This document shows, piece after piece, positions 9 to 92 of a DNA stretch of 23,125 nt. The position numbers and the translations under genes are program-made. Below the pieces are notes generated by a model. The model saw only the letters and a list, made by a program, of their open reading frames with translations, was not told the origin of the DNA and made no database searches. Each line of letters starts with the position of its first letter. Position 1 is the stretch's first letter. The stretch is taken from NCBI GenBank assembly GCA_031414535.1, contig JANNVQ010000035.1, positions 1 to 23,125 on the forward strand, read 5' to 3'. Source of the DNA: Gemmatimonas sp. (GTDB lineage Bacteria; Gemmatimonadota; Gemmatimonadetes; Gemmatimonadales; Gemmatimonadaceae).

Positions 9-92
9 CGTCGAACCGATCGCGGGAAGCCCGAACAGCCACTGGGGCCCCGAGCCCGTATGGCGCAAGGTGGGGCGCGCGCGATCCCGACG
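9..92 (+). ncRNA. Putative bridge RNA, 3' portion (donor-binding loop)
   Basis: Nested stems 9-13/88-92 (CGTCG/CGACG), 18-24/80-86 (GATCGCG/CGCGATC), 29-32/73-76 and 45-48/54-57 enclose an internal loop. Its 5' strand ACAGCCACT (35-43) matches the right-end sequence ACAGCCTCT (1053-1061) at 8/9. Confidence 0.7.

What the first reader, a model, noticed from the sequence alone, without database searches (positions are those of the whole stretch)
9..92. Bridge-RNA donor-binding loop with a readable guide matching the element's own right end
Seen: the non-coding stretch upstream of the recombinase folds into four nested stems around an internal loop. The loop's 5' strand ACAGCCACT (35-43) matches the last 9 nt of the IS right end, ACAGCCTCT (1053-1061), at 8/9 and ends in CT. 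Established: IS621 bridge RNA uses a left donor guide matching the right-end side of the circle junction around a CT core. Inference: this is the donor loop of an RNA-guided recombinase with a donor different from IS621. The opposite loop strand (58-70, GTATGGCGCAAGG) should hold the right donor guide, complementary to the first bases of the left end.
Basis: partly seen in the sequence, partly recalled or inferred. Interest (0 to 1): 0.8.

Follow-up and report, generated by a model that had tools for sequence, protein, structure and literature searches.

The report
Bridge-RNA donor loop of IS110 element

Summary
Confirmed. Window 1-1061 is most of a ~1.15-kb IS110-family element cut by the contig start. 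The missing 87 nt of its left end lie on six other contig ends.

Window 18-86 is the donor-binding loop (DBL) of an IS621-type bridge RNA:
- The left donor guide, 35-42 ACAGCCAC, copies the right end 1053-1060 ACAGCCTC at 7 of 8 positions. The mismatch is at position 7.
- The right donor guide is split: AU (60-61) and GCAAG (65-69). It pairs with the core and left-end start, CT-TGTAT.
- GU (70-71) is the handshake guide.

Across 27 relatives, each element's guide fits its own right end (mean 0.45 mismatches) better than other elements' ends (1.92). The three DBL stems covary.

The target-binding loop lies mostly upstream of the window. Its right guide is the reverse complement of the flank in 21 of 23 loci.

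The target is the arm of a REP/MITE-like repeat, with 48 empty sites in the genome.

- The outermost stem (9-13 with 88-92) is not conserved. Bases 3-13 belong to the target-loop stem.
- The donor differs from the IS621 donor at only 2 of 14 positions.

Transcription and activity are not shown. Verdict: a new member of a known kind, of low interest.

The parts
1..2 (+). Second base of the target-loop handshake guide (G1; the first, U, is the last base before the contig start), followed by a linker G.
   Evidence: Register set by alignment A2 and by the IS621 layout of RTG followed by a 2-nt HSG.
3..13 (+). 3' arms of the two outer stems of the target-binding loop (GAGC, GCCGUCG). They pair with bases upstream of the contig start.
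   Evidence: Helix 1 of A2 is 97.5% paired, and 7 of 11 pairs changed on both sides. The partner arm was read from the C12, C46, C24, C8 and C43 contig ends.
18..24 (+). DBL outer stem P1, 5' arm (GAUCGCG). Pairs with 80-86.
   Evidence: helix 1: 6 of 7 pairs changed on both sides.
29..32 (+). DBL stem P2, 5' arm (GCCC). Pairs with 73-76. Bases 33-34 (GA) are a linker.
   Evidence: helix 2: 97.1% paired.
35..42 (+). Left donor guide (LDG), ACAGCCAC. Same sense as donor top-strand positions 1-8, so it pairs with the bottom strand. U43 follows.
   Evidence: Matches right end 1053-1060 at 7 of 8, mismatching at position 7. Covaries with the right end in relatives. Occupies the same place as IS621 A123-C130.
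45..57 (+). Inner hairpin of the DBL: GGGC (45-48) pairs with GCCC (54-57), with loop CCCGA.
   Evidence: helix 3: 92.9% paired, 3 of 4 pairs changed on both sides.
58..59 (+). GU linker, at the place of IS621 G155-U156.
   Evidence: The G (alignment column 71) is invariant in all 28 rows of A1; the following base (column 72) varies.
60..69 (+). Right donor guide (RDG), split in two. AU (60-61) pairs with donor T14 and A13. GGC (62-64) is bulged out. GCAAG (65-69) pairs with T12 (G-T wobble), G11, T10, T9 and C8.
   Evidence: The left end starts CT-TGTATG in all six copies. IS621 has AU-UU-GCAAG with the same pairing. AU and CAAG are invariant in 28 of 28 aligned rows.
70..71 (+). DBL handshake guide, GU. 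After strand exchange it would pair with target C7 and G6 (the latter a wobble).
   Evidence: Same dinucleotide and place as IS621 G166-U167. The target left half is ..GTGC-CT.
73..76 (+). DBL stem P2, 3' arm (GGGC).
80..86 (+). DBL stem P1, 3' arm (CGCGAUC).
94..101 (+). Shine-Dalgarno-like GAGGAGAA, 7 nt before the ATG.
   Evidence: Read from the sequence. Inference only.
109..1044 (+). IS110-family recombinase gene, 311 aa. Catalytic D7, E50, D92, D95 and S230 align with IS621 D11, E60, D102, D105 and S241.
   Evidence: Pfam PF01548 and PF02371. NCBIfam NF033542 'IS110 family RNA-guided transposase', 214.9 bits against a cut-off of 140. PDB hits ISCro4 E 6.9e-40 and IS621 E 1.3e-36 with alignments. 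Catalytic residue names come from passages of PMC11208158.
1041..1046 (+). TTGACT, a putative -35 box. It meets TATGTC of the left end at 17-nt spacing only in the circular form. It overlaps the stop codon.
   Evidence: Junction built in a script. The motif with 17-nt spacing was found in 15 of 26 junctions examined, this element included. IS621 uses the same principle (passages). Motif match only.
1053..1059 (+). Left donor (LD): the last 7 bases of the right end, ACAGCCT.
1060..1061 (+). CT core dinucleotide at the right junction.
   Evidence: CT flanks both ends in all 6 left and 6 right junctions.
1062..1070 (+). Right half of the target, the REP-like arm (CCGUGGUGA). This copy has C where 5 of 6 copies have T at target position 10.

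Best explanation
Window 1-1061 is an IS110-group insertion sequence (about 1,150 bp from core to core). Its 195-nt left non-coding end encodes an IS621-type bridge RNA, and the flagged stretch is that RNA's donor-binding loop.

How the DBL would work (inferred from the IS621 structures):
- The recombinase holds the loop open.
[quoted passage not shown] - Together they read the right-end/left-end junction of the excised circle, ACAGCCT-CT-TGTAT.

A second loop lies mostly upstream of the contig start. It reads the target GTGC-CT-TCGTG, which is the arm of a REP/MITE-like repeat. It uses a short left guide (GUGCC) and a 7-nt right guide (CACGAAG).

The recombinase (DEDD plus Ser) then exchanges strands at the two CT cores. 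The two handshake dinucleotides pair better after exchange than before: no pairs before (one G-T wobble), against 2 Watson-Crick pairs plus 1 wobble after. This favours insertion.

Shown here: sequence anatomy, element ends, target sites, covariation of stems and guides, and conserved catalytic residues.

Inferred from IS621 work: RNA-protein binding, the pairing geometry and the chemistry.
For: Ends and core:
- 6 left and 6 right junctions, all with CT.
- 48 empty 14-mer target sites, or 57 for the 11-mer, against about 2.6 expected.

Left donor guide against right end:
- 20 of 28 loci match at 8 of 8 and 8 of 28 at 7 of 8.
- There are 11 distinct guide/end classes, and 0 of 100,000 shuffles do as well.
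- Under an equal best-match search, a guide has mean 0.45 mismatches in its own right-end region and 1.92 in other elements' regions (27 loci, 11 classes).
- The match sits 9 nt after the stop codon in 17 of 27 loci.

Right target guide against flank:
- The reverse complement of the guide equals the flank at 7 of 7 in 21 of 23 loci (13 classes, 0 of 100,000 shuffles).
- The flank is not part of the element, so DNA repeats cannot explain this.

Left target guide against left flank: own mean 6.2 of 9 against 5.2 shuffled, 0 of 20,000 shuffles as high.

Stems:
- DBL: 90.2% of cells paired, 12 of 16 pairs with changes on both sides, 0 of 500 shuffles.
- Target-loop outer stems: 97.5% paired.

Layout compared with IS621:
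- IS621 reads CCGG-ACAGUAUC-..hairpin..-GU-AU-UU-GCAAG-GU.
- This element reads CCGA-ACAGCCAC-..hairpin..-GU-AU-GGC-GCAAG-GU.

One relative (L047) has donor position 11 G>A together with guide C>U.

Protein: NF033542 at 214.9 bits, and all five catalytic residues aligned.
Against: - No direct evidence of a discrete RNA. The only RNA-library trace is a 295-nt contig of a variant element that runs on into the ORF.
- No circle junction was seen in the contigs of 4 runs.
- Single-sequence folding is not better than shuffles: z = -1.69 for the DBL, and z = -0.01 for the 168-nt RNA of the C57 copy.
- The left donor guide mismatches its donor at position 7 (A opposite bottom-strand A).
- The first base of the target-loop handshake guide (U) cannot pair with donor T7.
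- The left target guide matches only 5 of 9 positions in this element.
- The -10 box TATGTC is weak.
- Rfam 15 has no matching family, so no curated model confirms the RNA.
- The right-end 8-mers were picked as best matches to the guide. controls for that.
Confidence: 0.9

Rival explanations
1. The 8-mer in the leader and the 8-mer at the right end are DNA-level subterminal repeats bound by the transposase. On this reading there is no RNA guide, and they covary because both are copies of one protein-binding site.
For: Guide and right end have the same sense, as direct repeats would. Their covariation does not by itself distinguish RNA pairing from a shared protein site.
Against: - The neighbouring loop's right guide is the reverse complement of the flanking host DNA in 21 of 23 loci. 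Element-internal repeats cannot explain that.
- Where guide and end differ in L015, L016 and L019, the guide has G opposite a bottom-strand T, which is a wobble pair.
- The surrounding stems covary as RNA helices.
- The layout copies the IS621 RNA, which has been solved in complex.
Confidence: 0.03
2. The stretch is just a structured 5' leader of the transposase mRNA, acting in translation control or attenuation. On this reading the match to the right end is chance.
For: - The 9-mer with up to 1 mismatch is no rarer than chance window-wide: 5 found against 4.33 expected.
- The fold z-score is only -1.69.
- The metatranscriptome contig runs from the leader into the ORF.
Against: - Guide and end covary across 11 classes.
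- The AU and CAAG bases opposite the left-end start are invariant in 28 of 28 rows.
- The target-loop guide covaries with the flank.
Confidence: 0.02
3. The anatomy is that of a bridge RNA, but this lineage is a decaying, inactive element. The position-7 guide mismatch, the unpaired handshake base and the short left target guide would be signs of loss of function.
For: - The guide fits the right end of relatives L015 and L016 at 8 of 8, better than its own at 7 of 8.
- The left target guide matches 5 of 9 here, against 7 of 9 in L015.
- One copy (C57) carries 5 substitutions in the target loop.
Against: - At least six insertions have near-identical ends (98-100% identity to the window copy), in different REP copies.
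- The ORF is intact with all five catalytic residues.
- The IS body unitig has depth 74 against 15.8 for the flanking contig in run X1. This is a rough figure, and the tool warns that it is not a copy number.
- The same position-7 state occurs in relatives L044 and L045, and a like A-against-T state in L047.
- Position 7 of the left donor is reported as mismatch-tolerant in IS621 (passage of PMC11208160).
Confidence: 0.05

Closest known systems
IS621 of Escherichia coli, with its 177-nt bridge RNA (Durrant et al. 2024, PMC11208160; Hiraizumi et al. 2024, PMC11208158)
   Same: - The RNA is encoded in the left end, upstream of the recombinase gene.
- It has two internal loops, each with a 5' same-sense guide and a 3' antisense guide.
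- CT core.
- The donor is identical at 12 of 14 positions (ACAGTAT-CT-TGTAT against ACAGCCT-CT-TGTAT).
- Same split right donor guide (AU..GCAAG with a G-T wobble at position 12) and same DBL handshake guide, GU.
- Target positions 6-7 are GC in both.
- It targets a repetitive palindromic element.
- The junction promoter has the same geometry.
- The five catalytic residues are conserved.
   Different: - The protein is a distant relative (phmmer E 1.3e-36, 129.7 bits).
- The RDG bulge is 3 nt (GGC), not 2 nt (UU).
- The inner DBL hairpin is shorter.
- The right target guide is 7 nt, against 4 nt in wild-type IS621, and the matching left target guide is 5 nt, against 9.
- The left donor guide mismatches at position 7.
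- The target-loop handshake guide is UG, against AU.
- The 5' stem-loop region is short.
- The host is GC-rich. The nearest named records are Gemmatimonas and Gemmatimonadaceae MAGs.
ISCro4 bridge recombinase (PDB 9t56)
   Same: Best solved-structure hit: E 6.9e-40, 140.4 bits over residues 3-295. It is named as a bridge recombinase orthologue in a passage of PMC13626964.
   Different: Only the protein was compared.
IS110-group elements with donor ACAGTTGC-T-TGTATC, present in the covariation data set of Durrant et al.
   Same: Eleven of the relatives found here carry this guide and donor. The junction string occurs 260 times in supplementary file 5 and 130 times in file 4 of PMC11208160. The clade was therefore already part of the original discovery set.
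   Different: The junction of this element, the junctions of its closest relatives and its target were not found in the held supplementary text. Files 3, 4 and 6 were cut when stored, and file 2 was not readable.
IS1111-group elements (for example IS4321 and IS5075) and seekRNA systems
   Same: Same recombinase family and the same RNA-guided logic. [quoted passage not shown]
   Different: From my own recall, not tested here: in that group the guide RNA is encoded downstream of the gene, in the right end. In this element the right end after the stop codon is only 15 nt plus the core, and the RNA lies upstream.

Membership tests
IS110 family, IS110 group (IS621-type bridge recombinase plus bridge RNA) | Recombinase with an N-terminal DEDD RuvC-like domain and a C-terminal Tnp domain carrying the catalytic Ser. 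| tested here: met
   PF01548 E 7.2e-23 and PF02371 E 1.9e-21. NF033542 at 214.9 bits against a cut-off of 140. D7, E50, D92, D95 and S230 align with IS621 D11, E60, D102, D105 and S241.
IS110 family, IS110 group (IS621-type bridge recombinase plus bridge RNA) | Long non-coding left end upstream of the gene and a short right end. | tested here: met
   There are 195 nt from the left-end start to the ATG (87 nt on other contigs plus window 1-108). There are 15 nt plus the CT core after the stop codon.
IS110 family, IS110 group (IS621-type bridge recombinase plus bridge RNA) | CT core dinucleotide at both junctions and in the empty target. | tested here: met
   All 6 left and 6 right junctions have it. 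The empty sites read ..GTGC-CT-TCGTG.
IS110 family, IS110 group (IS621-type bridge recombinase plus bridge RNA) | Two stem-enclosed internal loops (target loop, then donor loop) supported by covariation. | tested here: met
   DBL: 90.2% paired, 12 of 16 pairs with changes on both sides, 0 of 500 shuffles. Target-loop outer stems: 97.5% paired. The target-loop inner hairpin is only 66.7% paired in my alignment, probably through misalignment.
IS110 family, IS110 group (IS621-type bridge recombinase plus bridge RNA) | Left donor guide same-sense to the right end, and right donor guide antisense to the core plus left-end start. | tested here: met
   LDG 7 of 8. RDG pairs AU with T14-A13 and GCAAG with T12-C8. 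LDG and right end covary. RDG covariation was seen in one relative only (L047), because the left-end start is almost invariant.
IS110 family, IS110 group (IS621-type bridge recombinase plus bridge RNA) | Left and right target guides match the insertion site. | tested here: met
   RTG CACGAAG is the reverse complement of CTTCGTG at 5 of 6 right junctions, with 1 mismatch at the window's own. Across relatives, 21 of 23 match at 7 of 7. The LTG matches only 5 of 9 in this element. Family-wide, own pairs average 6.2 against 5.2 shuffled.
IS110 family, IS110 group (IS621-type bridge recombinase plus bridge RNA) | Promoter rebuilt across the right-end/left-end junction of the circle. | tested here: inconclusive
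   TTGACT-N17-TATGTC is formed only at the junction. The motif is present in 15 of 26 junctions examined. This is a motif match only, and the -10 box is weak.
IS110 family, IS110 group (IS621-type bridge recombinase plus bridge RNA) | The RNA is made, binds the recombinase and is needed for recombination. | not testable with these tools
   The only trace is one RNA-library contig of a variant element over window 3-252. There is no family for it in Rfam 15.

The most novel reading that the evidence does not exclude
Guide and substrate may be evolving together within one population.

- The lineage's right end has changed at donor position 7 (A>T). This leaves both the left donor guide and the target-loop handshake base unpaired.
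- One of the six copies (C57) carries the handshake change U>A, which would restore pairing with T7. It also has two changes in its target guides.
- Environmental variants of the element carry a one-base change in the right target guide (CACGAAG>CACGGAG). That change fits exactly the sister REP variant (CTCCGTG, about 46-60 copies) in which the window's own copy sits.

If real, this is natural single-base retargeting between two repeat families, together with stepwise repair of handshake pairing.
Probability: 0.2. Interest if true: 0.4.

Novelty: new member of a known kind. Interest (0 to 1): 0.25.

Why it matters
This adds one well-resolved natural bridge-RNA system from a GC-rich sediment bacterium; the nearest named records are Gemmatimonas and Gemmatimonadaceae MAGs.

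All four guides, both handshake guides, the donor, the target and about 50 empty genomic targets can be read from sequence alone.

It shows that the IS621 rules carry over almost base for base to a distant orthologue. These include the split right donor guide, the G-T wobble at position 12, tolerance at position 7, and handshake pairing that favours insertion.

It could serve as another scaffold for bridge editing. It opens no new question.

Tried and rejected
- Rfam 15 at E up to 10, on window 1-1300 and on the full left end (L003 1-420): only noise hits, with no bridge-RNA family.

- Single-sequence folding as evidence: z = -1.69 and -0.01, so not informative in this GC-rich sequence.

- The MFE stem 38-41 with 61-64 (guide against bulge): absent from the alifold consensus. 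By eye it is not complementary in other clades.

- Circle junction or tandem copies in the contigs of 4 runs: none was listed. The single joint (782 to 977, one contig, side 21) is unconvincing. Contigs cannot show absence.

- RNA evidence: run X14 covers 9 of 30 bins, and only as contigs. This is not counted as support for a discrete RNA.

- Search for a CACGGAG-guide copy in this genome: the one hit is unrelated sequence, so there is none.

- My pattern for the right target guide failed in 5 of 28 loci (L033, L039, L040, L042, L043). They were dropped from the RTG count.

- L036 and L041 were dropped from the right-end counts because their right ends lie beyond the locus.

- L044's left flank is one base out of register with the left target guide. 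This is left unexplained.

- Earlier notes of this scan: none for this genome.

Full report
**What is in the window**

The window is the start of contig C35 of a 58-contig draft genome.
- Bases 109-1044 encode a 311-aa protein with the two Pfam domains of IS110 transposases (PF01548 and PF02371).
- It scores 214.9 bits (cut-off 140) on NCBIfam NF033542, 'IS110 family RNA-guided transposase'.
- Its best solved relatives are the bridge recombinases ISCro4 (E 6.9e-40) and IS621 (E 1.3e-36).
- In those alignments D7, E50, D92, D95 and S230 stand opposite IS621 D11, E60, D102, D105 and S241. Passages of PMC11208158 name these as the composite active site.

**Ends, core and target**

The element is a repeat that breaks the assembly.
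- Six contig ends carry its left end and six carry its right end.
- Every left junction reads ...GTGC-CT-TGTATGTCTCC.
- Right junctions read ...CAACACAGCCT-CT-TCGTGGTGA in four contigs, ...TCGTGGTAA in C12 and ...CCGTGGTGA in the window's own copy.
- The element therefore has a CT core on both sides, starts TGTATG and ends ACAGCCT at window 1059. It is about 1,150 bp from core to core.
- The window lacks the first 87 nt of the left end. I read them from the other contigs.

The uninterrupted target, TTCGTGC-CT-TCGTG, occurs 48 times in the genome. Its 11-mer core occurs 57 times against about 2.6 expected. Nearly all copies form the outer arm of a ~115-bp palindromic REP/MITE-like repeat. A sister variant of the repeat..GTGCCTCCGTG, occurs 60 times.

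**Checking the observation**

- Alone this is weak. Such a match with up to one mismatch occurs 5 times in the window against 4.33 expected. By my arithmetic that gives about 0.01 expected within the 108-nt leader on the right strand.
- The fold alone is also unremarkable: -41.3 kcal/mol, z = -1.69, and 8 of 200 shuffles fold as well.
- For the 168-nt RNA of the C57 copy, z = -0.01.

**Comparison with IS621**

What I saw of the papers:
- PMC11208160 (Durrant 2024): passages and supplementary hits.
- PMC11208158 (Hiraizumi 2024): passages.
- PMC13626964 (2026): abstract and passages.
- The other papers: search listing only.

They state the following for IS621:
- The right donor guide pairs discontiguously: A157-U158 with T14 and A13, U159-U160 flipped out, G161 wobbling with T12, and C162-G165 with G11-C8.
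- G166-U167 are the handshake guide for target positions 7 and 6.
- The supplement gives the donor as ACAGTAT-CT-TGTAT.
- It gives the loop as CCGG-ACAGUAUC-(hairpin)-GU-AU-UU-GCAAG-GU.

The window reads CCGA(31-34)-ACAGCCAC(35-42)-U-(hairpin 45-57)-GU(58-59)-AU(60-61)-GGC(62-64)-GCAAG(65-69)-GU(70-71). Its donor is ACAGCCT-CT-TGTAT.
- The donor differs from the IS621 donor at positions 5 and 6 only (TA>CC). The guide differs in the same way (UA>CC).
- The split right guide, its wobble G and the handshake GU are the same.
- The bulge is 3 nt instead of 2.
- Position 7 is mismatched: guide A against donor T. Durrant et al. describe this position as the mismatch-tolerant one.

**Relatives**

A protein search of 301 genomes of the same order found homologues at E <= 1e-30 in 52, this genome included. 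I read 29 loci at 51-78% identity, plus named MAG records. The closest named records are a Gemmatimonas sp. MAG at 86% and Gemmatimonadaceae MAGs at 78-79%.

*Left donor guide against right end (28 loci with both the loop and the right end in view):*
- The guide equals the right end at 8 of 8 in 20 loci and at 7 of 8 in 8 loci.
- There are 11 distinct classes, for example ACAGCTAC, ACCGCTAC, ACAGGTGC, ACAACTGC and ACAGTTGC.
- Shuffling the classes never did as well (0 of 100,000).
- The right-end 8-mers had been picked as best matches, so I repeated the test with equal optimisation. A guide finds mean 0.45 mismatches in its own right-end region and 1.92 in others' (27 loci).
- The match sits 9 nt after the stop codon in 17 of 27 loci.
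- In L015, L016 and L019 the single difference puts a guide G opposite a bottom-strand T, which is a wobble pair.

*Stems:*
- The three DBL stems are paired in 90.2% of cells against 77.9% shuffled. Twelve of 16 pairs changed on both sides, 0 of 500 shuffles reach this, and slid controls give 28-51%.
- Bases 3-13 instead form the 3' arms of the target-loop stems, which are 97.5% paired with 7 of 11 pairs changed on both sides.

**The other loop**

Upstream of the contig start the RNA has a second internal loop.
- Its 3' strand, CACGAAG, is the reverse complement of CT-TCGTG, the core plus the right flank.
- Across relatives the same 7 positions equal the flank at 7 of 7 in 21 of 23 loci (13 classes, 0 of 100,000 shuffles). 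My pattern missed the guide in 5 of 28 loci.
- The flank is host DNA. This rules out the idea that these matches are internal DNA repeats.
- The 5' strand matches the left flank only at GUGCC in this element. Family-wide, own pairs average 6.2 of 9 against 5.2 shuffled (0 of 20,000).

*Handshake guides.* The majority copy has UG in the target loop and GU in the donor loop.
- Before strand exchange they form no pairs (one G-T wobble).
- After exchange they form two Watson-Crick pairs plus a wobble.
- This is the insertion-favouring pattern described for IS621.

**Expression**

Joining the right end to the left end creates TTGACT-N17-TATGTC. The -35 box overlaps the stop codon at 1041-1046. The same arrangement is seen in 15 of 26 junctions examined and is the IS621 principle.

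This is a motif match only. Of the public runs, one metatranscriptome contig (295 nt, 4 differences) covers window 3-252 plus 45 nt upstream. It runs into the ORF and the tool warns that DNA may be present, so I do not count it as proof. No circle junction was seen.

**Verdict**

- The DBL is 18-86.
- The right donor guide is split.
- Bases 3-13 belong to the other loop.
- The donor is nearly that of IS621.

The family is curated by NCBI as RNA-guided. The commonest donor type among the relatives occurs 260 times in the original paper's data. The junctions of this element and of its closest relatives, and its target, were not found in the held text, which is partly cut.

It is a new member of a known kind.

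Noticed in passing
L003 (G000:C57) 142-228, minus strand: One of the six left-end copies differs from the other five at 5 of the 87 bases upstream of the window. The changes are at left-end positions 20, 57 (left target guide), 72 (hairpin loop), 80 (right target guide) and 87 (handshake base U>A, which would pair with donor T7). The next 141 bases are identical.
   Followed up: partly
Window 1062-1070 and genome-wide: The target is the arm of a ~115-bp palindromic REP/MITE-like repeat. The 14-mer occurs 48 times. A sister variant, GTGCCTCCGTG, occurs 60 times. The window's own copy sits in the sister variant, with one mismatch to the right target guide at target position 10.
   Followed up: partly
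Window 1-3, runs X14 and X5: A near-identical element in a metatranscriptome contig and in a DNA run of another study reads CACGGAG where this genome has CACGAAG. That guide would fit the sister repeat variant exactly. No such copy exists in this genome.
   Followed up: partly
G000:C46, last ~170 bases: Five tandem 8-bp units of the target's left half (CTTCGTGC) lie directly before one left junction.
   Followed up: no
Window 38-41 and 61-64: In this element and its nearest relatives, the bulged bases of the right donor guide (UGGC) are complementary to the left donor guide (GCCA), so the free RNA could close its own loop. This is not conserved in other clades.
   Followed up: partly
L047 (Chloroflexota MAG): This distant relative has donor CT-TATAT with guide AU-gc-GUAAG, a compensatory change at position 11. 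It shows the same A-against-T mismatch at donor position 7 (read by eye).
   Followed up: no
L044 (Gemmatimonas sp. MAG, 86% identity): Its left flank has one extra C before the core (GTGCC-CT). The shared left target guide GUGCC would therefore pair one base out of register compared with this genome.
   Followed up: no
Window 1083-2278, minus strand: The genes next to the insertion encode MsrA (PF01625, E 4.8e-65) and MsrB (PF01641, E 1.6e-47). The MsrB ORF as listed has a long N-terminal extension before the domain at residues 84-198.
   Followed up: partly
Window 2412-4427, plus strand: One 671-aa open frame holds a TetR N-terminal domain (residues 9-54) and an outer-membrane efflux protein domain (best stretch 476-660). 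It may be two genes in one frame or a fusion.
   Followed up: no
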